Positions 5,367 through 20,000 are shown, counted from the stretch's first letter. The stretch: 20,000 bases of DNA from an uncultured Gemmatimonadota bacterium (GCA_964576115.1 CAZNUA010000012.1:55731-75730), one strand, 5' to 3'. Notes: generated by a model from the letters alone, not told the origin. Numbers and translations: made by a program.

Positions 5367-5858
5367 ATGAGCACCCGCATTCTCATCGTCGGCAGCTGGG
5401 CCAAGGAGCAGATCACGGTCGAGAATATCAGGCGCGCGGACGACTACGAGGTCCATGCCTGGCTCGACACCAACAATCCCGGCATCACCGGTCAGGTGGA
5501 CGGCTTCGAGATCGGCAGTCTGTATGCGATCGACGAGATCGTGGACTACGCCGTCCGGCAGACCGTCGACCTGGTCCTGCCGACCACTGCGTCCCCGCTC
5601 TCGGCCGGGCTTGTCGATGCCCTCTCGGCCAAACAGGTGCCGGTCTTCGGTCCCGTCCGGGACGCCGCCCGGCTCGAATCGGACAAAGCCTGGACCCGCC
5701 GGCTGATGCAGAAGTGCTGTCCCGAGGCGATTCCCTCCTTCCGTGTCTTCACCGACCGGGACGAGGCCGTGGCTCATGCCCGCGAGCGCGACTTTGAAGT
5801 GGCCGTGAAGCCGACCGGTCTCACCGAAGGGCTCGGGGTCAGGGTTTTCGGCGATCAG
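5367..5858 (+). CDS. PurD (GAR synthetase)-like ATP-grasp ligase, divergent paralog; N-terminal ~164 aa only, truncated by the gap
   Basis: RBS GAGGA at 5358-5362; ATG is 9 nt after the ablA stop. Aligns by eye to the PurD N and B domains: RILIVGSWAKE (vs KVLVIGxGGRE), NNPGI, PLSAGLVDAL, VFGPVRDAARLESDKAWTRRLM, VAVKPTGLTEGLGVRV. Confidence 0.75.
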
Positions 5859-5958
5859 NNNNNNNNNNNNNNNNNNNNNNNNNNNNNNNNNNNNNNNNNN
5901 NNNNNNNNNNNNNNNNNNNNNNNNNNNNNNNNNNNNNNNNNNNNNNNNNNNNNNNNNN
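5859..5958. other. Scaffold gap (100 N), real missing sequence of unknown length
   Basis: Flanks are not duplicated. The PurD-like gene enters the gap with less than half of a typical PurD length (~420 aa) and does not re-emerge. Confidence 0.9.
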
Positions 5959-5959
5959 C

Positions 5960-6448
5960 ATGACCCTGACAATCCGACAGGCCCGTGAGGACGATTTCCT
6001 CCGGGTTCATGCCTTCATCGACCGCTGTGAGATCCTCGTCACACATCCCGAACACGTCTATCGGATCATTTTGCGTTATTTCGCCGACAGCTGTTACGTG
6101 GCCGAGCGCGACGGCGAGATCGTCGGTTTCCAGATGGGCTTTCTCTCCCAGCGCCACCCCGGAACGTATTTCCTCTGGCAGATCGGAACCGATCCCGCCC
6201 TGCGTCGCCAGGGAGTCGGCCGGGCCCTGCTGGCGCACGCCGAGGAGGATCTGCGCGACAGCGGTTGCGAGCGGATCGAGGTCACCATCGATCCCGAGAA
6301 CGTCGCGTCTGTCCGGATGTTCGAAAAACGGGGCTATGTCAATATCAGCCGCCGCGAAGGCGACACGGTCGAAGTGAACGATATGACAGCCGTGAAAGAT
6401 TTCTACAGCCCCGGCCGCCACTTTGTCCTGCTCGAGAAGGTCCTGTAA
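5960..6448 (+). CDS. GNAT N-acetyltransferase resembling EctA (diaminobutyrate acetyltransferase) family
   Basis: YFADSCYVAERDGEIVGFQMGF, PGTYFLWQIGTDPALRRQGVGRALL (acetyl-CoA motif A, RxxGxG) and IEVTIDPENVASVRMFEK match the EctA-type pattern FADT.VVAE..GE.VGF / T.FVWQVAV / TI...N.AS..LF. The ATG is at the gap edge, so the true start is uncertain. Confidence 0.85.
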   Translation: MTLTIRQAREDDFLRVHAFIDRCEILVTHPEHVYRIILRYFADSCYVAERDGEIVGFQMGFLSQRHPGTYFLWQIGTDPALRRQGVGRALLAHAEEDLRDSGCERIEVTIDPENVASVRMFEKRGYVNISRREGDTVEVNDMTAVKDFYSPGRHFVLLEKVL

Positions 6449-7179: not shown

Positions 7180-9725
7180 AGAACCCTGCTGGCCGTACTG
7201 ACCCTCGCCCTGGGCATCGGTTCGGTCACCGTCATCTTCAGCGTGGTGAACGCCGTGCTCATCAGACCGTTGCCGTACGAGGATCCCGACGGGCTGGTGC
7301 AGATCATGGAACGGGTCGAGACCGTCTCGCCCACGATACCGGTCTCGCAGGGTCTCTTCCTTGCCCTGCGGGAGCAGACCACCACCCTGGCCGGCCTGGC
7401 CGCTTCGGATTTCGTGACCTTCTCGGTGATCGGCGGAGAGGAACCCGTCCAGGAACCGGGGGTCATGACGACGGCCGACTTCTTCACTCTTCTCGGCGCC
7501 CGCCCCGAACTCGGCCGCTTCTTCACCCGGGAGGAGGAAACCGCCGGATCGAACGGCGTGGCGGTGCTGAGCTTCGGTGCCTGGCAGAGCCTCTTCGCCG
7601 GTGATCCCGAGGTCATCGGCCGGCGGATCCGGTTGATCACGACCTACCAATACGGTCCGCCGCGCAGTCTGCCCGAGGAGGTGACCGTTATCGGCGTGCT
7701 CGGGGAGGATTTCGTCTCCCCGTACGGGAATACCCGTATCTTCGTTCCCCTGGGGATACAGGGGGAGCGTGAGAACAGGATGCACCAGTACCTCTGGCTT
7801 CTGGGGCGGCTTGGTCCCGGCACGACCGCTGAAACCGCCCGCGCCGAGATGGATGTGATCGTCCAGGGAGTCGATCCCCAGTTCAGGGGGACGAGAGGTA
7901 ATGAAGACTGGGACAACGGCGTCACCCTGACCTCGTTCTGGGAGGTCCAGCGGGGATACCTCCGCAGCTCCCTCCAGATCTTCTTCGTGGCGGTAGGTCT
8001 GCTGCTGCTGGTGGGATGCGCCAATATCGCCAACCTGCTTCTGGCCCGCGGTNNNNNNNNNNNNNNNNNNNNNNNNNNNNNNNNNNNNNNNNNNNNNNNN
8101 NNNNNNNNNNNNNNNNNNNNNNNNNNNNNNNNNNNNNNNNNNNNNNNNNNNNTCTGCTGCTGCTGGTGGGATGCGCCAATATCGCCAACCTGCTTCTGGC
8201 CCGCGGTGCCGGCCGCGGCCGGGAGATGGCCGTGCGGCTCGCCATCGGCGCTTCGCGCCGCCGGCTCGTCCGGACCCTGCTGATCGAGAACGCCCTGCTG
8301 GCCGCGGTCGGGATTGCGGTCGGTCTTTTCCTCACCTGGGTGGGGATCCGGCTGCTCGTCGCGGTCTATCCGAGCGCCGTCCTGCAGCGGACCGGCGTGG
8401 GACTCGATCTGCCCGTTCTGCTCTTCGCCGCCGGAGTGGGGGCGGTGAGCGTGCTCCTCTTCGGTCTCGCACCTGCCCTGCAGACGTCCCGGGTCAGCCC
8501 CGGTACGACCCTGCAGACGGGCGGGCGGACCCTGTCGGCGAGCCGGGGGCAGCGGCGTCTGCGCAGCACGCTGCTCGTCATCGAAGTGTCCCTGGCCGTC
8601 ATCCTCACGGTCGGCACCGGCCTGCTGCTGCGCAGTCTGCATAACATGATGCACGTCGAGTTGGGCTTCGAACCCGGGAACCTCATCATGATGCAGCTCC
8701 CCCTTGATCCATCGGCGTATCCGGCGCGGGAACATCAACTCGAGTTCGGGCGGCAGCTGCACGAAAGGCTCACCGCCCTGCCCGAGGTCGAACAGGCCGG
8801 ATCGTTCGATTTCCTGCCCTTCAGCGGGGCGGCGCCGGGGATCTACTTCCAGATCCCCGATCACCCCGATCCCGAACGGCAGCAGCAGACCATGGGCCTG
8901 CTGCGGACCGCCGGTCCGGGAGCCCTCGAAGCGCTGGGGGCGCGGCTGCTCACCGGGCGGTGGTTCGAAGAGGCGGATCTGGCGATCACCCCCGACGTGG
9001 TCATCATCGACCGCACCTTGGCCGAGCGGTACTGGCTCGACGGCGATGCCGTGGGCCGCCGCATCAACCTCATCACCCGCACGCCGTGGCCCCCGGTGAC
9101 GGTGATCGGGGTGGTGGAGACCATGAGGCTGCTGGACTTCGGGAGCGACGGGAATCCCGGTCTCTTTTTCCCGACGCACTACTCGCAGAGTGCCGGCGTG
9201 GTCGTGCGCACCCGGTTCGAGCCGGCGGATTTCGCCGAGCGCCTGCGTGCCGTCGTCGCCGACCTCGATTCCGATATCCCCCGCGGCGATATCCGGATCA
9301 TGGAGACGGTGCTGCGTGATTCCTCCTCGACCCAGCGTTTCCGGGCCATTCTGCTGGGTTTCTTCGGCGGTCTCACCCTTCTGCTCGCCCTGGTGGGGGT
9401 CTACGGCGTGCACAATTACACTGTGACCCAGCGCACGCACGAGATCGGTCTGCGCATGACCCTGGGAGCCCGCAGATCTGGCCTGCTCCGCCTCATCCTC
9501 TTCGAGGCGGGCCGCCTGACCGGACTGGGGATCGTGCTCGGGATCGGCGCGTCACTGGCCCTGAACCGGCTCATCCGCTCGTTCCTCTTCAACCTGAGCC
9601 CGACCGATTTGCTGACCTACGCGGCGGTCGCGGTGGCGATCCTCATCGTCACCGGGATCGCCAGCCTCCTGCCCGCCTGGCGGGCCAGCCGGGTCGATCC
9701 GGTCGTGACGCTGCGGGTGGATTGA
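7180..9725 (+). CDS. ADOP-type (MacB/FtsX-like, internally duplicated) ABC permease; ~800 aa once the gap duplication is collapsed; start codon problematic
   Basis: LAVLTLALGIGSVTVIFSVVNAVLIRPLPY, LLLVGCANIANLLLARGAGRGREMAVRLAIGASRRRLVR, LLLALVGVYGV, QRTHEIGLRMTLGA, LLPAWRASRVDPVVTLR. The halves join in frame after removing 155 nt (100 N plus a 55-bp duplicate). There is no adjacent ABC ATPase gene. Confidence 0.88.
7998..8207. other. Assembly artefact: 100-N gap (8053-8152) flanked by an exact 55-bp duplication (7998-8052 = 8153-8207)
   Basis: TCTGCTGCTGCTGGTGGGATGCGCC...GGCCCGCGGT is identical on both sides of the gap. Confidence 0.92.
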
Positions 9726-12931: not shown

Positions 12932-13423
12932 CTACCGGTACCTGATCAGCCTCCGTTCGTGTATCGGACGGTCGTCGCGGAAATAGGTGAGGACCATGAA
13001 ACTGTCGGTGCGTCCGTTCCGGTCGAAATCGATGTCGGCGTCGACGATCAGGTAGAGATAGTTGAACCGGAACCGCCTGTTTTCCCGGTTCACGGAATAT
13101 ATCCGGAAACTGTGCAGATGGTCTTCGGGGAGCCTGACGTCGAGTTCGGAACTGCTCCACTGCGTCCGGCTGAGGATGTTGAGAGTACCGTTCTCGGGAT
13201 AGAAATGCCCGTGCTCGGTGAGGTAGAGATCCTGGGCGTCCATGATGATGTCGACGTACTCCTCCAGGGCGGCGTACTGGGCCTTGAGCTTGTAGCCGGT
13301 GTAATTGGGAATCGAGATCGCGATCAGGGTGCCCAGGACCAGCAGGGTCGTGACCATCTCGATGATGGTAAAACCCCAGTGTCTGCGGTCGGTTCTCAAG
13401 GATGTGAGGGCCCGGCGGTTCAT
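12932..13423 (-). CDS. Type IV pilin / pseudopilin with a prepilin peptidase cleavage site
   Basis: Basic leader MNRRALTSLRTDRRHWG, then FTIIEMVTTLLVLGTLIAISIPNY (G-1, F+1, E+5). The start overlaps the upstream stop (ATGA at 13420-13423). RBS GAAGGAGG. Confidence 0.88.
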   Translation of the reverse strand: MNRRALTSLRTDRRHWGFTIIEMVTTLLVLGTLIAISIPNYTGYKLKAQYAALEEYVDIIMDAQDLYLTEHGHFYPENGTLNILSRTQWSSSELDVRLPEDHLHSFRIYSVNRENRRFRFNYLYLIVDADIDFDRNGRTDSFMVLTYFRDDRPIHERRLIRYR

Positions 13424-14001
13424 CTCGGCCCTCCTTCGGTCAGCACCAGCTCCGGGGTGGCGTCTTCAGGTGGTTCGAGCAGGCTCAATTCCCAGGTGCG
13501 GGGTGAGGTTCTCCGGTAACGGTACGCTTCCAGTTCGTCCGAATCCATCAGTTCGGCCGGCAGGTAGTCGCCCCGAAGGGCATTCAGGTCGGCGGGAGCT
13601 TCGCCGTTTTCCTGCAGGTAATCGCGGATCGCGGCATCCACAATCACCAGCGAGGCGACCGGATATTCGGACGCGACGAACGCTTCGATTTCGGGCACCG
13701 GTGCGGTCATGAACAGGATGAGGTTGGCGATGCAGATCAGGACAACCAGCGCGATCGGAACGATCAGACGCAGGCGGCTCCGGCGCACTTTCGCCTCTTC
13801 CTGACGGGCCCGTCGGGCGGCACTTTCAGTGACCTTCTGGCGGGTCTCCTCGGTCACTTCGCCGGCGGCCGCCAGAGCCAGGCACTTGTTACAGAGGACC
13901 GTGCCCGCTTCCCCGGGCAGGGCGCACTCCTCGCAGAGCGCCGTGTCGCAGGCCGCACACCGGGCGACGGCTTCCCGATCGGGATGTTGAGCGCATTTCA
14001 T
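13420..14001 (-). CDS. Membrane protein with N-terminal B-box-like zinc finger, coiled linker, one TM helix and a pilin-like extracytoplasmic domain
   Basis: RBS GGAGAGGTG before ATG 14001. Zinc finger C-x2-H-x8-C-x2-C-x4-C-x2-C-x10-C-x2-C (CAQHPDREAVARCAACDTALCEEC...CNKC). TM segment LIVPIALVVLICIANLILFM. 193 aa. Confidence 0.8.
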   Translation of the reverse strand: MKCAQHPDREAVARCAACDTALCEECALPGEAGTVLCNKCLALAAAGEVTEETRQKVTESAARRARQEEAKVRRSRLRLIVPIALVVLICIANLILFMTAPVPEIEAFVASEYPVASLVIVDAAIRDYLQENGEAPADLNALRGDYLPAELMDSDELEAYRYRRTSPRTWELSLLEPPEDATPELVLTEGGPR

Positions 14002-14165
14002 CGTCACCTCTCCGGCCGGTATACTCCCGGTACCGCCCGGGGGAATTCCACTCCCCCGGGCCCGGTCATCATAGGCGATTGAGCCCTTGTCTTCCAAGCT
14101 GTCGTAACGCTCGCGGCTGGATATCCAGGGCCTGCCCGCTCTCATCCGGGGAGGGGAGAACCGGA

Positions 14166-17100
14166 ATGGCCTCTCGTGCCGATCAACCTGAAGTAACGAC
14201 CACGAAGAATCCGCAGCTGCTGGCCGAAATCATCTCCCGTCGCCAGCCTGAAGATGAGAGAGGGATGGTTCTCGACCGGATGGTCGGTGAGGGAATGAAG
14301 CAGATGCTGGCCCGCCATCTGCTGGGGGAGAGCCCCTTCGCGGAGTTGAACCACATCCTGCTGGCTGCGGTTGTGACTTTCATCATCTGGCCCTCGGTAC
14401 CGTTCCCGACAATCGGCGCCTGGGCAGGGGCNNNNNNNNNNNNNNNNNNNNNNNNNNNNNNNNNNNNNNNNNNNNNNNNNNNNNNNNNNNNNNNNNNNNN
14501 NNNNNNNNNNNNNNNNNNNNNNNNNNNNNNNCTTTCATCATCTGGCCCTCGGTACCGTTCCCGACAATCGGCGCCTGGGCAGGGGCGATCGTGCTCGTGA
14601 CCGGTTTCCGGATCGTGATGAGACAGCGGATCACCCGCACCATTGCCGACCCGGAGCGGGCCACCGGGCGGATCCGCTTCTGCATCACCCTGCAGGGGCT
14701 GGCCTGGGGCCTCGGCACCTTCGCCGTCGCCCCTCTCCTGCCGGCCCGGGATCTGGCCCTGGTCATGGTGGTCTTCGCGGGACTGGTGACCGGCGCGACG
14801 GTGGTCCTCAACACCGACTACCTCGCCTTCAGGCTCTTCGCCGCCGCGATGCTGCTGCCTCTCGCAGCCGCCATCCTGCTCAGCGGAACCACCCGGTTCC
14901 ACCTCGTGGCTGCCCTGCTGGTGTTGTTCTTCATTCTCATGACTTCGATCCTGCACCGCCGCCTGCACCACCAGGTCATCAGCCATCTCAGCGCCCGCAA
15001 GCGGCTGGAGTACAGCGAGAAAGTCGTCGAGCAGGAGAAGAACTACCTCAATGCGGTCTTCATGCACGCTCCGATCGCGATCGCCACCCTCGACACCGAC
15101 GGCCGGGTCATCGAGGTCAATCCGGGCTTCGAGAAGCTCTTCGGCTATTCGGCCGGGGAAGTGGTCGGGATCGAACTGAACCGGTTGGTGGTGCCCGAAG
15201 AGGAACTCGATCGCAGCCGTCTGCTGGATCGCCAGCTCTCGACGACCGAACCCACCGTGATCGAAGTCGTGCGCCGGTGCAAGGACGGCACCCTGATCGA
15301 GGTGAAGGCTTCCGGGACCATCACCGGAGAGTCCGAGGACGCTCTCATCTTCGTTCTCTACGACGATCTGACCGAGATCCGCCAGGCGCAGGCAGCCCTG
15401 CGCGAGACCGAGGAGCAGTACCGCAAGCTGATCGAATCGGCCTCTGACGTCGTCTGGCAGGTGGATGGCGAAGGGCGGTGGACTTTTCTGAACACCGCCG
15501 CCGAAGAGGTCTTCACGGCCGACCGGGACGACCTGCTCGGCCGGTCCTTCCTGGAGATGATGCCGCCCGACCAGCACGAGGCGGCCGGCGAGAGTTTCCG
15601 GCGGATTCTGGCGGGACAGGATCTCATCGATTTCGAAACCGTCTTTCTCACCTCGACCGGAGAGATGCGGCACATCAGTTTCTCGGGCCGGCCGATCCAC
15701 GATCCCGCGACCGGGCAGAGCGTCGGCGCCCGGGGGATCGCCCGCGATGTGACCGCCCGGGTCGAAGCGCGTCAGGCGCTGGAAGACGCCCGGTCTGCGG
15801 CCGAGCGACTGGCCGAAACACGGAGCAGCTTCCTGGCCAACATGAGCCACGAGATCCGTACCCCCATGAACGGGATCCTCGGCATGACCGAGCTTCTGCT
15901 CGATTCCGATCTGACCCCCGAACAGCGACAATCGGCTCAGCTCATCCAGACTTCGGCCGAGGCTCTGCTGCGGATCCTGAACGACATCCTCGATTTCTCC
16001 CGGATGGAAGCGGGTCAATACGAAATCGAACGCACCAGCTTCAATCTGCCCGCCCTCGTGGACTCCACCTTGAGAACCTTCGCCGTGCGGGCTTTCGAGC
16101 AGGGTCTGGAGCTGGTTTCCGACATGCACGGCGACACCCCCCACCAGGTCATCGGCGACCCGGGCCGCATCCGGCAGGTCCTCAACAACCTGGTTGGAAA
16201 CGCGCTCAAATTCACTCCCGAGGGGGAGGTGAGTGTCGCGGTCGCCCCGGTCGGGGAGCGGGAGGGCGCCGCCCTCATCAGGTTCACCGTCCGTGATACC
16301 GGCATCGGCATACCGGCTGAGAAACAGCAGCACATCTTCGAGGAATTCGCCCAGGCCGATTCCTCGACCACCCGCCACTATGGCGGAACGGGTCTGGGAC
16401 TGGCCATCTCCAGCGGTATCGTCCGCCTCATGGGGGGTGAGATCGAACTCGAGAGCGAGGTGGGGCAGGGGAGTGTGTTCAGGTTCGAGATCCCTCTCGA
16501 AATCGAAGCGGCCGACCTGCGTCCCGTTCCCGAGCGCGAAAAAGTGATCCTGGAGGGGATCCGGGTTCTGATGGTGGACGACAACGCCACCAACCGGCGG
16601 ATCGTGAGACAGATGCTGGACGGACTCGGTCTTGAGATCGAGGATGCCGAAGAAGCTGAAGCCGGGCTGGCGAAGCTGCGCGCCGCTGTCGAAAAGGAGC
16701 ACCCCTTCGACCTGGCCGTCATAGACGGTCACATGCCCGGGCGCGACGGCTTCGAGATGGCGTCGGTCATCCGGTCCGAAACCCGGATTGCGGGAACGAA
16801 GCTGATGATGCTGACCTCGGCGGCCCGTAAAGGCGACGGCCAGCGGTGCCGCGAGCTGGGGATACACGCCTATCTGACCAAACCGGTCGCGCGCCCTGAT
16901 CTGCTGGAGGCAATCGTGATGGTACTCGGTGAAAAAGGTCCCGAAGAAAAAGCGGACACCCTCATTACCCGGCATTCGATCGAGGAGACCCGTCAGCACC
17001 GCCGGATCCTGCTGGCCGAAGACAACCCGGTCAACCAGAAGGTTGCCGCCACCATGCTTCGCAAGCGCGGCCATGAGGTCGAGGTCGTGGAGAACGGCCG

Positions 17101-17803
17101 TCTGGCTGTAGAGGCGGTACGAAAGCGGACCTACGACCTGGTGCTGATGGATGTGCAGATGCCCGAAATGGACGGTCTGGAGGCCGTGCAGGAGATCCGC
17201 CGCGATCGGGCTCTGGCGAACCTGCCGGTCATTGCGCTGACCGCTCACGCCCTGGAAGGAGACCGGGAGAAGTTCCTCGAGGCGGGGATGAACGGGTATC
17301 TCTCCAAACCCTTCAAGCCTCACGAGCTCTTCTCGACCGTCGAGGAGTGGACGGCCGGCAGAGACGAGGAGTCTGCGGAAGGGGGAGAGAAGCAGACAGG
17401 GGAGCGGGGTGTGCCGGGACCTGGAACCGATGGCAGTCCGCCGGTCGATCTGGAAAGCCTGCGGGCCACAATGCGAGAGGCCGGGGTCGAGGAAGCGGTT
17501 GACAGCATGCTCGAACTTTTTCTTGATGATTCTCCGGGCCGGATGGCCGACCTGCGGCGAGCCGTGGAGGCTTCGGACGTTGAAGCAACGGCCAAAACCG
17601 CCCACGCCTACAAATCGGCGGCGGCCACGATCGGGGCCGCGACTCTGGCCGAACTGCTCAAGGAGATCGAACTCGAATCCAAAGAGGGAAACATAGCTCG
17701 CGCGGGCGAGCTTCTGGCGCAGACCTCGGCGGAGCACGAGGCCGTGATCGCCTACCTGCAACCCCGTCTGCCAGAAGGAGGCCAGGATGACCGGGGAGCG
17801 TAA
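14166..17803 (+). CDS. Membrane-bound hybrid sensor histidine kinase (multi-TM, 2 PAS, HisKA, HATPase, 2 REC, HPt); 1160 aa once the gap is collapsed
   Basis: RBS GGGGAG before ATG 14166. H-box FLANMSHEIRTPMNGILG; N-box QVLNNLVGNALKFT; G1 DTGIGI; G2 GGTGLGLAIS. REC1 AVIDGHMPGRDG; REC2 VLMDVQMPEMDG; HPt AHAYKSAA. The frame is continuous (WAGAIVLVTG) after removing the gap and duplicate. Confidence 0.93.
14377..14586. other. Assembly artefact: 100-N gap (14432-14531) flanked by an exact 55-bp duplication (14377-14431 = 14532-14586)
   Basis: CTTTCATCATCTGGCCCTCGG...GGGCAGGGGC is identical on both sides of the gap. Confidence 0.92.
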
Positions 17804-19988
17804 TCCCTGCCAGTGGATGATAGATGCCGTTCAGAAGGCCGGTTTCAGCATCCCCGACGTCGTCTGTCTGAGTCTGCCCGAGGAGACCGGCGAGCTCTGG
17901 CAGAGCATGATCGAGAACTGCGGTGTCACCGAGTACGAACTGGCCGATATCGTCGCCCGCCATGCCCGGCTCAAGGTTGCCGATCTGAACAACGCCGAGG
18001 ATCACGTCCTCAAGCTGTTGCCCGAAAAGCTGGCTCGCCAGAACCTCGTTCTGCCTCTGCGTGAAGATGACGAGAATCTCATCGTCGCCACCGGAGCGCC
18101 CTTCGATTTCAATGCCGCCAAGATTCTTTCCTTTGCCTCGGGGCGAACCCCGCTCTTCGAGGTCGCGCCTCCTTCCCGGCTCGCCGAGGCGATCGAATCG
18201 CGCTACTCCCCCGACCGGGTCGTGGAAGGCCTGCTGGGCAACGTGGAGGCGCAAGATGCAGACGATGTGACCGTCCTCGAGGAGCGCAGCGCCGAGGATC
18301 TGGAACTGGCCGCGGTCGAGGCCGGGCCGGTGGTGCAGCTGACCAGCGCGATCCTGCGTGACGCTCTATCGCAGGGAGCGAGCGATATCCATCTCGAACC
18401 CTCGCGGATCGGCGCCGTCATCAGATTCCGGGTCGACGGGGTCATGCGTCACTACATGCAGATGCCGGTACCCGCCCTGAACCGGGTCCTCTCCCGGCTC
18501 AAGATCCTCGCCAGGATGGATATCGCCGACCGGCTCCGGCCGCAGGACGGTCGGGCTTCGGTCCGGGTGCGGGGGCACAGCTACGATCTGCGGGTCTCGA
18601 CCGTCCCGACCCGGAGCACCGAGAAAATGGTCATTCGCGTGCTCGACAGCGCCGCCTCGATATCGCTCGACGCGATCGGTGTGCCGCGCCGCGAGCTGGA
18701 GCAGTTCCGGCGCATGCTCTCGCAGCGGGACTCGATCGTCATCATGACCGGACCCACCGGTTCGGGGAAAACGACGACTCTCTATGCCGCCCTGCAGGAA
18801 CTGGCCACCGAAGAGGTCAACATCATCACCGTGGAGGATCCGATCGAATACGAGCTGGACGGGATCACCCAGATCCAGGTCCAGCCGCAGCAGGGGGTGA
18901 CCTTCGCCTCGGCCCTGCGCGCGATCCTGCGCCAGGATCCCGATATCATCCTGCTCGGTGAGATCCGGGATACAGAAACAGCCGAGATCGCCGTACAGGC
19001 CAGTCTCACCGGGCACCTGGTCCTGGCCACGCTCCATACCAACGATTCGATCGGTGTCATCACCCGTCTCGAAGATCTCGATCTCGACCGGACCGCCATC
19101 GCCGAATCGCTGCAGGGAGCGCTGGCCCAGCGTCTGATGCGCCGGGTCTGCGACCGTTGTGCCGAACGGATCCTGGAGGAAGATCTGACCGAGGACGAAC
19201 GCCGGCTCGCCGATCGCTGCGGAGTGGTGCCGCTCGTCAGAGCGAAGGGATGCGAGCAATGCGGCCAGTCCGGCTACCGTGGCCGCTTCGCCATCTGGGA
19301 ACTGTGGAGTTCGAACGGAGAAATGGAGGAGCTGATCGCCGGCGGGGCGAATATTTCCGAACTGCGCCGTGCCATCGCGCGTTCGGGCATGCGAACTCTC
19401 TTCGACTCGGCCCTGGACAAAGTTCGGGAAGGAATCACGACCCTTGAAGAGGTCGAACGGGTTCTGGGGGCGGCCGGTGAAGCGGCGCCTGCCGTCGCGG
19501 AAGTGCCGACGGCTGGAAACGCTGTTTCTCCAGAACCCCCGGTCGGGATCACGACTCTATCCGAACCTACTGCCGAAGAGGAGGAAGCCGAACTCAAAGC
19601 CGATGCCGACGGAGCGCTCGTTCTCATCGTCGATGACGATCCGGTGAATCGGAAACTGGCTCGGACCCTGCTTGAAAAGAACGGTTTCGATGTGGCCGAA
19701 GCCGAGGACGGCGGCGCTGCGGTCGAACTGCTCGATCTCAATCCGGGCTTCAGCCTGCTCGTGCTCGACCTGGATATGCCGGTTATGGGCGGGGAGGACG
19801 TGCTGACCCACGTCCGGGGCTCGGTCGGGACAGCAGGCCTGCCGGTGGTGATCCTGACCGGTAGCGAGGAGCAGGACACCGAGGTGCGCCTGATGGCGGC
19901 CGGGGCCGACGACTACATCCGCAAACCGCTCAACCCCGGCAAGTTCATGGCCCGGGTCAACGCCGTGCTGCGCCGCGCCGGCATGTGA
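17787..19988 (+). CDS. GspE/PilB-family assembly ATPase fused to a C-terminal response-regulator receiver domain
   Basis: RBS AAGGAGG at 17775-17781; 17-bp overlap with the kinase. ASDIHLEP, RFRVDG, RLRPQDGR, Walker A GPTGSGKTTT, Asp box TVEDPIE, LRQDPDIILLGEIRD, His box TGHLVLATLHTND, zinc motif CDRC...CEQC. REC at ~19614-19985: IVDDD, LVLDLDMP, ILTG, YIRKP. Confidence 0.93.
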   Translation: MTGERNPCQWMIDAVQKAGFSIPDVVCLSLPEETGELWQSMIENCGVTEYELADIVARHARLKVADLNNAEDHVLKLLPEKLARQNLVLPLREDDENLIVATGAPFDFNAAKILSFASGRTPLFEVAPPSRLAEAIESRYSPDRVVEGLLGNVEAQDADDVTVLEERSAEDLELAAVEAGPVVQLTSAILRDALSQGASDIHLEPSRIGAVIRFRVDGVMRHYMQMPVPALNRVLSRLKILARMDIADRLRPQDGRASVRVRGHSYDLRVSTVPTRSTEKMVIRVLDSAASISLDAIGVPRRELEQFRRMLSQRDSIVIMTGPTGSGKTTTLYAALQELATEEVNIITVEDPIEYELDGITQIQVQPQQGVTFASALRAILRQDPDIILLGEIRDTETAEIAVQASLTGHLVLATLHTNDSIGVITRLEDLDLDRTAIAESLQGALAQRLMRRVCDRCAERILEEDLTEDERRLADRCGVVPLVRAKGCEQCGQSGYRGRFAIWELWSSNGEMEELIAGGANISELRRAIARSGMRTLFDSALDKVREGITTLEEVERVLGAAGEAAPAVAEVPTAGNAVSPEPPVGITTLSEPTAEEEEAELKADADGALVLIVDDDPVNRKLARTLLEKNGFDVAEAEDGGAAVELLDLNPGFSLLVLDLDMPVMGGEDVLTHVRGSVGTAGLPVVILTGSEEQDTEVRLMAAGADDYIRKPLNPGKFMARVNAVLRRAGM

Positions 19989-20000
19989 GACAGCGGCGCT

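What the first reader, a model, noticed from the sequence alone, without database searches (positions are those of the whole stretch)
14166..19988. Phosphorelay that appears to end on a pilus/secretion motor: hybrid kinase-HPt coupled to a PilB/GspE-REC fusion
Seen: a complete His-Asp-His kinase (HisKA, two phosphorylatable RECs, HPt His at ~17603) overlaps by 17 bp a GspE/PilB ATPase. The ATPase carries, after an Ala/Pro/Glu linker, an intact receiver domain (DDD, phospho-Asp in LDLDMP, T, KP). No DNA-binding response regulator is in view, and a pilin operon is transcribed divergently 164 nt away. Established: HPt domains donate phosphate to a terminal receiver, while characterised PilB/MshE motors are controlled by c-di-GMP or separate proteins (Chp/PilG, FimX/PilZ, Frz/MglA). 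Inference: direct post-translational switching of filament assembly by Asp phosphorylation of the motor itself.
Basis: partly seen in the sequence, partly recalled or inferred. Interest (0 to 1): 0.76.

Follow-up and report, generated by a model that had tools for sequence, protein, structure and literature searches.

The report
Pilus-type motor ATPase with fused receiver
A sensor kinase that passes phosphate through four steps sits directly in front of a pilus/secretion-type motor protein that carries its own phosphate-receiving domain, an arrangement shared by a large uncharacterised family and suggesting the motor is switched directly by phosphorylation.

Summary
A membrane hybrid kinase (PAS-PAS-HisKA-HATPase-REC-REC-HPt) overlaps by 17 nt a MshEN-T2SSE ATPase with an intact C-terminal receiver. 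The N run inside the kinase is a scaffold artefact.

The fusion is not unique. 119 of the 120 best database clusters carry it, and 134 of 301 sampled Gemmatimonadota genomes have a strong match. The fused ATPases form one clade.

In the window's subclade, 13 of 22 loci have a hybrid kinase and/or an HPt beside the ATPase. One protein has HPt fused to the ATPase itself.

None of 40 fused proteins keeps the c-di-GMP motif that the genome's unfused PilB paralogues have.

So a phosphorelay ending on the motor's own receiver is the best reading, but it is inferred. Three points limit it:
- The contig ends 12 nt after the gene.
- The nearest relative has a stand-alone receiver just downstream.
- The ATPase is an orphan without a platform gene.

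Seven literature searches found no paper on this architecture. An N-terminal REC-MshEN-T2SSE form is catalogued. I rate it a new variant of a known kind, of moderate interest.

The parts
14166..17803 (+). Hybrid sensor histidine kinase, 1160 aa once the scaffold gap is collapsed. It has hydrophobic segments at about aa 56-215, then PAS, PAS, HisKA, HATPase_c, REC, REC, Hpt.
   Evidence: Pfam (ORF 14591-17803). Collapsed ORF length and hydropathy. The gap is bridged by contigs.
14432..14531 (.). 100-N scaffold gap inside the kinase gene, flanked by an exact 55-nt duplication (unresolved contig overlap). It is not a real interruption.
   Evidence: Joint 14376->14532 skipping 155 nt in contigs of X3 and X4.
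15848..15850 (+). HisKA phospho-His codon (H420 in the numbering of ORF 14591-17803, motif SHEIRTP).
   Evidence: Invariant in 7 orthologous kinases. HisKA matches residues 411-475.
16724..16726 (+). Phospho-acceptor Asp of kinase REC1 (D712).
   Evidence: Invariant in 7 orthologues, with D663 and K764.
17150..17152 (+). Phospho-acceptor Asp of kinase REC2 (D854, in LMDVQMP).
   Evidence: Invariant in 7 orthologues, with D811, T884, K906 and P907.
17603..17605 (+). HPt phospho-His codon (H1005, motif AHAYKS).
   Evidence: Sequence. Hpt matches residues 973-1053. A1004, H1005, A1006 and K1008 are invariant.
17775..17803 (+). Gene junction: Shine-Dalgarno AAGGAGG (17775-17781), ATPase ATG at 17787, kinase stop TAA at 17801-17803. 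The 17-nt overlap suggests translational coupling.
   Evidence: Read directly.
17787..19988 (+). PilB/GspE-superfamily ATPase with a C-terminal receiver, 733 aa. The N-terminal MshEN-like domain has no c-di-GMP motif. The T2SSE core has Walker A, His box and a tetracysteine motif. A disordered linker (563-608) leads to the REC.
   Evidence: Pfam; PDB hits to PilB/GspE/PilF, E 1e-111 to 1e-100; NCBIfam; AlphaFold2; alignments.
18747..18773 (+). Walker A, TGPTGSGKT (residues 321-329).
   Evidence: Invariant in 25 sequences and 42 sequences.
19473..19610 (+). Ala/Pro/Glu-rich linker (residues 563-608). Its length varies widely in the family.
   Evidence: pLDDT below 50 over 563-583 and 585-608. 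Length variation is visible in alignment A1.
19620..19958 (+). Receiver domain (residues 612-724). The phospho-acceptor D661 is at nt 19767-19769.
   Evidence: Pfam. D616-618, D661, T691, K713 and P714 are invariant in A1. D661 and K713 are kept in 38 of 42 sequences.
14002..14165 (.). 164-nt divergent intergenic region between the kinase gene and the B-box/pilin gene pair.
   Evidence: One sigma-70-like match on the minus strand (14097-14068), no more than the shuffles give.
13420..14001 (-). 193-aa protein with an N-terminal B-box-like zinc ribbon and one hydrophobic segment. A homologue (49% identity) holds the same place in G002.
   Evidence: Pfam zf-B_box E 4e-4, below the cut-off..
12932..13423 (-). 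163-aa pilin/pseudopilin-like protein with a class III signal (G|FTIIE). A homologue (43% identity) holds the same place in G002.
   Evidence: Sequence. Weak NCBIfam GspG/ComGC/PilA matches, below cut-offs.. The G002 homologue matches N_methyl.

Best explanation
The two genes form one signalling-to-motor unit. A membrane-anchored hybrid kinase autophosphorylates on H420. It relays the phosphoryl group through one of its own receivers (D712 or D854) to H1005 of its HPt domain. HPt then donates to D661 of the receiver tethered to the C-terminus of the co-translated PilB/GspE-type ATPase.

The ATPase belongs to a monophyletic family, mostly in Gemmatimonadota and this small related phylum. In this family the N-terminal c-di-GMP-binding motif of MshE/PilB has been lost and a phospho-competent receiver has been gained. 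Control of the motor has therefore moved from a second messenger to direct Asp phosphorylation.

The receiver hangs on a roughly 45-residue disordered linker of variable length. It most likely acts as a tethered switch, either docking on or releasing the ATPase, or changing hexamer formation or recruitment to a machine. Rigid coupling is unlikely.

The output is probably assembly of a type IV pilin-like filament, using a platform protein encoded elsewhere. The divergently encoded pilin-like protein is a candidate substrate.

Shown here: domain content, catalytic residues, gene overlap, family distribution, conserved neighbourhood and loss of the c-di-GMP motif.

Inferred: phosphotransfer to D661, its effect on the ATPase, and the filament.
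For: Architecture and residues.

Gene linkage: the 17-nt overlap follows a perfect Shine-Dalgarno.

Family size:
- 119 of the 120 best clusters carry MshEN+T2SSE+REC.
- 134 of 301 sampled Gemmatimonadota genomes match at E<=1e-140, most to query residue ~730. One of the 134, G192, is flagged unpublished.
- 3 of 10 genomes of the window's own phylum carry it.

Single origin: the 41 fused rows form one clade (SH-aLRT 100) apart from the 4 unfused paralogues of the same genome (quick tree).

Neighbourhood in the window's clade A, 22 rows:
- Hybrid kinase with HPt immediately upstream on the same strand in 7 (window, L185, L147, L151, L152, L153, L155).
- Stand-alone HPt adjacent in 3 (L154, L158, L161).
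- CHASE3 hybrid kinase upstream in 3 (L159, L160, L162).

Rosetta-stone case: P0090 is Hpt(13-93)-MshEN-T2SSE-REC.

c-di-GMP motif (NF053729, cut-off 38 bits): 0 of 40 fused N-termini reach it. The genome's own unfused paralogues score 60 (C17, C38) and 113 bits (C20) as whole proteins. The C17 and C38 N-termini, run as controls, score 62 bits.

HPt is scarce: only 2 HPt domains occur in the whole genome.

Structure: AlphaFold2 folds each domain well, with a disordered linker.

Precedent in trans: phosphorylated PixG binds PilB1 (PMC11181946, abstract). DrdR binds PilB and PilT and raises their ATPase activity (PMC13507683, abstract).
Against: No experiment exists; everything about phosphotransfer and output is inference.

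The contig ends 12 nt after the ATPase stop. Contigs from four runs all stop at the same place. A downstream response regulator therefore cannot be excluded. In the closest relative, G002, a 123-aa stand-alone receiver follows directly.

9 of 22 clade-A loci, and the B1/B2 clades, have no kinase or HPt beside the ATPase.

In L159-L162 the fused receiver is degenerate (D617P, D661E, T691G/A/P, K713S or a gap) yet still sits by a hybrid kinase. Adjacency alone therefore does not prove transfer to the fused receiver.

The ATPase scores below both equivalog cut-offs: GspE 507 against 630, PilB 489 against 676. No T2SSF gene is nearby. The genome's 3 T2SSF genes each lie beside another ATPase.

REC-GGDEF genes lie upstream in L163 and L164, which hints that c-di-GMP still matters for some members.

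pTM of 0.50 gives no domain arrangement.
Confidence: 0.6

Rival explanations
1. The phosphorelay ends on a separate response regulator, for example a single-domain receiver encoded just beyond the contig end, as in G002. The ATPase's receiver would then be a competing phosphate sink or be fed by another kinase. This would resemble a PixG/PixH or PilG/PilH two-receiver design.
For: A stand-alone REC gene lies directly downstream of the ATPase-REC in G002 (L185) and in L161, L162 and L165. The same is seen in L168, L170, L174 and L179. The window's contig stops 12 nt after the gene.
Against: No close orthologue of G002's 123-aa REC is found in G000; the best match is 37% identical. The HPt-ATPase-REC fusion P0090 and the invariant acceptor residues are best explained by the fused receiver being a real acceptor. 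A sink and an output can coexist, so this rival partly overlaps the main reading.
Confidence: 0.2
2. The ATPase-REC is not a filament motor. It is an orphan PilB-like NTPase that acts as a signalling or regulatory protein, or powers something other than a pilus. The neighbouring pilin-like gene would be coincidental.
For: It scores below the PilB and GspE equivalog cut-offs. No platform, alignment or secretin genes are nearby. The genome already has a canonical pilB-pilT-pilC-pilS-pilR set, a second T4P-like cluster and a T2SS, each with its own ATPase. The 193-aa neighbour has no homologue in the 38 Gemmatimonadota loci.
Against: Walker A, His box, tetracysteine and other catalytic residues are invariant. 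The best structural relatives are PilB, GspE and PilF. Pilin-like (N_methyl) genes recur within 3 genes of the fused ATPase in 5 of 31 loci scanned (L148, L185, L168, L170, L174). They also occur in the window, and in the delta-proteobacterial L010 in the same divergent layout.
Confidence: 0.12
3. The receiver works without phosphorylation, as a fixed dimerisation or localisation module (pseudo-receiver). The kinase next door would signal elsewhere.
For: A subclade (L159-L162) has exactly such a degenerate receiver with Glu at the acceptor position.
Against: The window's receiver and 37 other family members (38 of 42 sequences in all) keep the acidic pocket, D661, T/S691 and K713. That conservation is expected only if phosphorylation chemistry is used.
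Confidence: 0.05

Closest known systems
REC-MshEN-T2SSE architecture (e.g. Geobacter metallireducens Gmet_3473), listed in Supplementary Table 4 of Wang et al. 2016, PMC5013675 (read)
   Same: A two-component receiver is fused to a MshE/PilB/GspE-type ATPase. It is catalogued by domain analysis only, with no function tested in that paper.
   Different: There the receiver is N-terminal and the distribution is beta-, gamma- and delta-proteobacteria. Here the receiver is C-terminal behind a disordered linker, the c-di-GMP motif is lost, the family is centred on Gemmatimonadota, and HPt or hybrid-kinase genes are linked. MshEN-T2SSE-REC is not in that table.
PixG (PatA-type response regulator) acting on PilB1 in Synechocystis (PMC11181946, abstract read)
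   Same: An Asp-phosphorylated receiver protein controls a type IV pilus extension ATPase by direct contact. A second CheY-like receiver (PixH) acts as antagonist.
   Different: There the receiver is a separate protein fed by a CheA-like kinase. Here it is covalently fused to the ATPase and apparently fed by an HPt of a hybrid kinase.
DrdR, a tandem-receiver regulator of PilB/PilT in Xanthomonas campestris (PMC13507683, abstract read)
   Same: A receiver-only regulator binds the pilus motors and raises their ATPase activity.
   Different: DrdR is an orphan, separate protein with no linked kinase, and it acts on canonical PilB and PilT.
MshE / PilB c-di-GMP control through MshEN (PMC5013675, passages)
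   Same: The same ATPase family and the same N-terminal MshEN fold region (Pfam PF05157).
   Different: The 53-residue c-di-GMP motif (NF053729) is not detected in the window's protein or in 39 fused relatives. It is detected in 3 unfused paralogues of the same genome.
ArcB/BarA/TorS-type hybrid kinases with HPt (best NCBIfam matches TorS, BarA, ArcB, all below cut-off)
   Same: A His-Asp-His relay within one protein that donates to a terminal receiver.
   Different: This kinase has two receivers before the HPt, and the likely terminal acceptor is an ATPase rather than a DNA-binding regulator.

Membership tests
PilB/GspE-type secretion ATPase (Pfam T2SSE PF00437) | T2SSE core domain over the curated cut-off | tested here: met
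   423 bits against a cut-off of 24.9, residues 177-558. PDB relatives are PilB, GspE and PilF at E 1e-111 to 1e-100.
PilB/GspE-type secretion ATPase (Pfam T2SSE PF00437) | Walker A lysine, catalytic Glu, His-box histidines, tetracysteine zinc motif | tested here: met
   K328, T329, E392, H410 and H417 are kept in 42 of 42 sequences. C455, C458, C489 and C492 are kept in 40-42 of 42. Motif names are recalled.
Type IV-A pilus assembly ATPase PilB (NCBIfam TIGR02538 equivalog) | Score over the equivalog cut-off of 675.65 bits | tested here: not met
   488.8 bits. The paralogue on contig C17 passes with 727.3 bits.
Type II secretion ATPase GspE (NCBIfam TIGR02533 equivalog) | Score over the equivalog cut-off of 630.25 bits | tested here: not met
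   507.3 bits.
Type IV pilus / T2SS motor in its machine | Encoded with a platform protein (PilC/GspF, T2SSF) | tested here: not met
   No T2SSF in the window. The genome has 3 T2SSF genes (C17, C38, C26), each beside another ATPase.
Phospho-accepting receiver domain (Pfam Response_reg PF00072) | Acidic pocket, phospho-acceptor Asp, conserved Thr/Ser and Lys | tested here: met
   93.1 bits against a cut-off of 30.2. D616, D617, D618, D661, T691, K713 and P714 are present and invariant in 25 sequences.
Phospho-accepting receiver domain (Pfam Response_reg PF00072) | Actual phosphorylation at the Asp | not testable with these tools
   Needs a phosphotransfer assay.
MshEN c-di-GMP receptor | 53-residue tandem c-di-GMP-binding motif (NCBIfam NF053729, cut-off 38 bits) | tested here: not met
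   No match at E<=0.01 in residues 1-150. 0 of 40 fused proteins reach the cut-off, and 2 give faint hits of 18.5-18.8 bits. Positive controls score 62 bits. The paper notes that imperfect motifs can still bind.
Multistep His-Asp-His phosphorelay hybrid kinase | HisKA His, receiver Asp and HPt His all present | tested here: met
   H420, D712, D854 and H1005 are invariant in 7 orthologues. The domains are found.
REC-MshEN-T2SSE architecture of Wang et al. 2016 | Receiver placed N-terminal to MshEN | tested here: not met
   The receiver is at residues 612-724, C-terminal to the ATPase. The table was read.

The most novel reading that the evidence does not exclude
A phylum-wide class of pilus/secretion-type hexameric motors has exchanged its c-di-GMP input for a covalently tethered receiver. 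These motors serve as the terminal acceptors of His-Asp-His-Asp phosphorelays. They would be response regulators whose output domain is the motor itself, giving transcription-independent on/off control of filament assembly. A degenerate Glu-bearing subclade (L159-L162) would represent a locked-state variant.
Probability: 0.45. Interest if true: 0.7.

Novelty: new variant of a known kind. Interest (0 to 1): 0.55.

Why it matters
How response regulators such as PilG, PixG and DrdR act on PilB-type motors is still being worked out with separate proteins. A natural covalent fusion would give a compact system for biochemistry and cryo-EM of phosphorylation-dependent motor control. This one has its cognate kinase next door, and in one case the HPt sits in the same chain.

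The fusion would also add a motor ATPase to the list of response-regulator output domains. It suggests that whole lineages swapped c-di-GMP control of pili for two-component control.

For annotation, these genes are currently named generically ('ATPase, T2SS/T4P/T4SS family', 'TadA', 'hypothetical').

Tried and rejected
Complex prediction of ATPase core (170-575) against receiver (600-733): no verdict, score 0.00 against a mark of 0.32, controls not run. I draw nothing from it.

Sequencing runs: no RNA holder is listed, so nothing can be said on expression.

The search for related loci in genome contigs with alignment A1 used generic Walker motifs and returned mostly ordinary PilB/GspE from many phyla. 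Only L010, L013, L025, L070 and L077 were followed up. Of these, L010 and L025 are true C-terminal fusions. L013 and L070 have a separate REC gene. L077 has no REC.

Looking beyond window 20000 failed: the contig ends there, and Logan contigs from 4 runs stop at the same base.

Searching G000 for G002's downstream 123-aa REC gave only generic receiver similarity, at most 37% identity. ftsZ, its neighbour in G002, lies in the middle of contig C24 in G000.

The 193-aa B-box protein has no homologue in the 38 Gemmatimonadota loci by tblastn or phmmer. An earlier run with a wrong start coordinate gave no x193 result and was redone.

Scan notes held nothing relevant.

AlphaFold2 gave pTM 0.50, so no inference on where the receiver docks.

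Seven literature searches found no paper on a C-terminal REC fused to PilB/GspE. Subscription journals are not covered. InterPro and Pfam architecture tables could not be consulted.

Rejected idea: that G002 shows a natural split into ATPase plus REC. The break lies inside the ATPase C-terminal domain (query 519-534, frame change). It is therefore a frameshift, either an assembly error or a pseudogene.

Full report
**What is in the sequence**

The window is G000:C12:55731-75730, and contig C12 ends at window base 20000. On the + strand, ORF 14591-17803 carries these Pfam domains:
- two PAS domains
- HisKA (residues 411-475)
- HATPase_c
- two Response_reg domains
- Hpt (residues 973-1053)

ORF 17787-19988 (733 aa) carries MshEN (71-144), T2SSE (177-558, E 1e-126) and Response_reg (612-724, E 1.6e-26).

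The kinase gene contains a 100-N run at 14432-14531. Its flanks share an exact 55-nt duplication. Collapsing it gives one in-frame ORF of 1160 aa from ATG 14166, with hydrophobic segments at about residues 56-215. Contigs of runs X3 and X4 join 14376 to 14532, skipping 155 nt. These runs may be the source sample.

The HPt His codon is at 17603-17605. The kinase stops at 17801-17803. The ATPase starts at ATG 17787, five bases after AAGGAGG (17775-17781), so the overlap is 17 nt.

Divergently, 164 nt away, lie two genes:
- a 193-aa protein with a weak B-box-like zinc ribbon (13420-14001)
- a 163-aa pilin-like protein with a G|FTIIE class III signal (12932-13423)

An iPGM gene follows on the same strand. 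The rest of the window holds unrelated housekeeping genes.

**Are the parts functional?**

Seven orthologous kinases were aligned: the window, G002 and five Gemmatimonadota. H420 (HisKA), D712 and K764 (REC1), D854, T884 and K906 (REC2), and H1005 with K1008 (HPt) are all invariant.

In the ATPase, the Walker A Lys, the catalytic Glu and both His-box histidines are kept in 42 of 42 family members. The four zinc-motif cysteines are kept in 40-42 of 42. The nearest solved relatives are M. xanthus PilB, V. cholerae GspE, Geobacter PilB and Thermus PilF.

The receiver has D616-D617-D618, D661, T691 and K713-P714. These are invariant in 25 homologues. D661 and K713 are kept in 38 of 42.

AlphaFold2 folds the four domains confidently. 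It leaves residues 563-608 disordered and gives pTM 0.50. The receiver is therefore a tethered module without a predicted fixed position.

**How common is the fusion?**

It is not a singleton.
- 119 of the 120 best-scoring 90%-identity clusters carry MshEN+T2SSE+REC. The exception is the 516-aa frameshifted G002 protein. Source names are generic or point to Gemmatimonadota and Longimicrobiales.
- The window's own GTDB phylum holds only 10 genomes, and 3 have the fused type.
- In Gemmatimonadota, 134 of 301 sampled genomes match at E<=1e-140, most through query residue ~730, and many twice. One of these genomes, G192, is flagged unpublished.
- True C-terminal fusions also occur in a delta-proteobacterial MAG (L010, 780 aa) and an Omnitrophota MAG (L025, 962 aa).

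A quick maximum-likelihood tree puts all 41 fused rows in one clade (SH-aLRT 100), apart from the four unfused paralogues of G000. It splits them into clade A (22 rows, support 100, includes the window), B1 (8 rows) and B2 (11 rows). This is a quick tree, rooted at the midpoint only.

**Neighbourhood**

I fetched 40 loci, called genes with a GC3-based script that was checked on the window, and ran Pfam on the neighbours. One search covered 21 loci, one search covered 10 of the 18 B-clade loci, and one search covered L152.

In clade A (22 rows):

| Neighbour of the ATPase-REC gene | Loci | Count |
|---|---|---|
| Hybrid kinase with HPt immediately upstream, same strand | window, L185 (G002), L147, L151, L152, L153, L155 | 7 |
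| Stand-alone HPt gene adjacent | L154, L158, L161 | 3 |
| CHASE3 hybrid kinase upstream, no HPt seen | L159, L160, L162 | 3 |
| REC-GGDEF upstream | L163, L164 | 2 |
| Pilin-like gene plus unknown upstream | L148 | 1 |
| MshEN-REC protein two genes upstream | L149 | 1 |
| Nothing relevant | L150, L156, L157, L166 | 4 |
| Contig too short to judge | L186 | 1 |

So 13 of 22 clade-A loci have a hybrid kinase and/or an HPt beside the ATPase.

P0090 (871 aa) is Hpt-MshEN-T2SSE-REC in one chain.

B1 loci typically read ATPase-REC, then a single REC, then an unknown of ~180 aa, then an N_methyl pilin. B2 loci have a large unknown protein upstream and a divergent FHA-GAF-cyclase.

In L159-L162 the fused receiver is degenerate (D617P, D661E, T691G/A/P, K713S or a gap).

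**Place in its own genome**

G000 has five PilB-like ATPases:

| Contig | Context |
|---|---|
| C17 | pilB-pilT-pilC-pilS-pilR; this PilB passes the TIGR02538 cut-off |
| C38 | a second T4P-like cluster with pilins, PilN, PilO, a secretin, HD-GYP, PilC and a PilS/PilR-like pair |
| C26 | a T2SS (GspF, H, K, M, D, E) |
| C20 | an orphan with a weak PATAN/DUF4388 match and two c-di-GMP motifs |
| C12 | the window's orphan ATPase-REC |

Only three T2SSF genes exist, each beside one of the first three ATPases. The window's ATPase scores below both equivalog cut-offs. Only two HPt domains exist in the genome.

**Loss of the c-di-GMP motif**

The NCBIfam model of the 53-residue MshE motif (NF053729, cut-off 38 bits) matches the whole C17, C38 and C20 paralogues at 60-113 bits. 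The C17 and C38 N-termini, run as controls, score 62 bits.

It matches none of 40 fused N-termini at the cut-off. Two give faint hits of 18.5-18.8 bits. Wang et al. caution that imperfect motifs may still bind.

**Interpretation**

The best reading (confidence 0.6) is a His-Asp-His-Asp relay whose last acceptor is the receiver tethered to the motor ATPase. Phosphorylation would replace c-di-GMP as the input. Four lines of evidence support it:
- conserved linkage of kinase or HPt genes to the ATPase
- the HPt fusion in P0090
- conservation of the receiver's catalytic residues
- scarcity of HPt domains in the genome

The weak points are:
- There is no biochemistry.
- The contig ends 12 nt after the gene, and in G002 a stand-alone 123-aa receiver follows directly. 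No close orthologue of that receiver was found in G000.
- 9 of 22 clade-A loci lack the linkage.
- The ATPase is an orphan, so 'pilus motor' is inferred from family membership and from recurrent pilin-like neighbours. These are seen in the window, L185, L148, L168, L170, L174 and L010.

**Comparison with the literature**

Wang et al. 2016 (PMC5013675) list REC-MshEN-T2SSE (Gmet_3473), MshEN-REC and other combinations in Supplementary Table 4. They do not list MshEN-T2SSE-REC (passages and table read).

Phosphorylated PixG binds PilB1 (PMC11181946, abstract). DrdR binds PilB and PilT and raises their ATPase activity (PMC13507683, abstract).

Seven full-text searches found no paper on a C-terminal receiver fused to a PilB/GspE ATPase or on an HPt feeding one. 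Subscription journals and InterPro architecture tables were not available.

**Verdict**

I classify it as a new variant of a known kind: a receiver-controlled enzyme, and a receiver-ATPase fusion already catalogued in another orientation. The family is large but uncharacterised. Interest 0.55.

Noticed in passing
window 5859-5958, 8053-8152, 14432-14531: Three 100-N scaffold gaps. The second and third are flanked by exact 55-nt duplications (unresolved k-mer overlaps). The first has no overlap and truncates a purD (GARS) gene at 5367-5963.
   Followed up: partly
G000:C20, locus L188:8718-10664 (-): A second orphan PilB-like ATPase (648 aa) with a weak DUF4388/PATAN match at its N-terminus and two c-di-GMP motifs (NF053729, 112.7 bits, 2 stretches). 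It sits next to a HepT/nucleotidyltransferase pair. PATAN-domain regulators are known partners of PilB1 in cyanobacteria, so this may be another regulator-motor fusion.
   Followed up: no
L159, L160, L161, L162 (Gemmatimonadota genomes G217, G279, G061, G026): A subclade whose fused receiver is degenerate (D617P, acceptor D661E, T691G/A/P, K713S or a gap) but which keeps a CHASE3 hybrid kinase upstream. In L161 and L162 a separate intact REC lies downstream, plus an HPt in L161. This looks like replacement of the fused receiver by a free one.
   Followed up: partly
P0090 (871 aa, from a 3.8-Mb contig): HPt domain (13-93) fused to the N-terminus of MshEN-T2SSE-REC. Donor, motor and acceptor are in one polypeptide.
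   Followed up: partly
L149:3250-4128 (+): A 292-aa MshEN-REC protein without an ATPase domain, two genes upstream of a fused ATPase-REC. The MshEN-REC architecture is listed by Wang et al. 2016.
   Followed up: no
L163:6018-6950 and L164:8698-9591: REC-GGDEF diguanylate cyclase genes lie immediately upstream of the fused ATPase in two sister loci, although the ATPase N-terminus lacks the c-di-GMP motif.
   Followed up: no
G000:C38, locus L187:7572-9224 (+): A HAMP-GAF-HD-GYP phosphodiesterase gene is embedded in a T4P-like cluster, directly upstream of its c-di-GMP-motif-bearing ATPase.
   Followed up: no
window 20000 (contig end): Logan contigs from four runs in three studies all stop exactly at window 20000, 12 nt after the ATPase stop. 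The assembly graph branches there, which may reflect strain variation or a repeat downstream.
   Followed up: no
window 15736-15939: Summed contig depth is 10- to 50-fold higher than in the flanks (389-1620 against about 30-50). This is the HisKA H-box region, and many short contigs of other organisms map to it.
   Followed up: no
window 14183-17761 (-): A 1192-aa antisense ORF runs across the whole kinase gene. It is a high-GC artefact, rejected by codon-position GC.
   Followed up: yes
G000:C53:17072-17320 (+): The only other HPt domain in the genome, in a 156-aa open frame (probably a stand-alone HPt). Its context was not examined.
   Followed up: no
L185 (G002:C74) about 8536-8566: The G002 orthologue changes frame inside the ATPase C-terminal domain (query residues 519-534). 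This gives a 527-aa ATPase ORF and a 198-aa REC ORF. It is a frameshift, either an assembly error or a pseudogene, not a natural domain split.
   Followed up: partly
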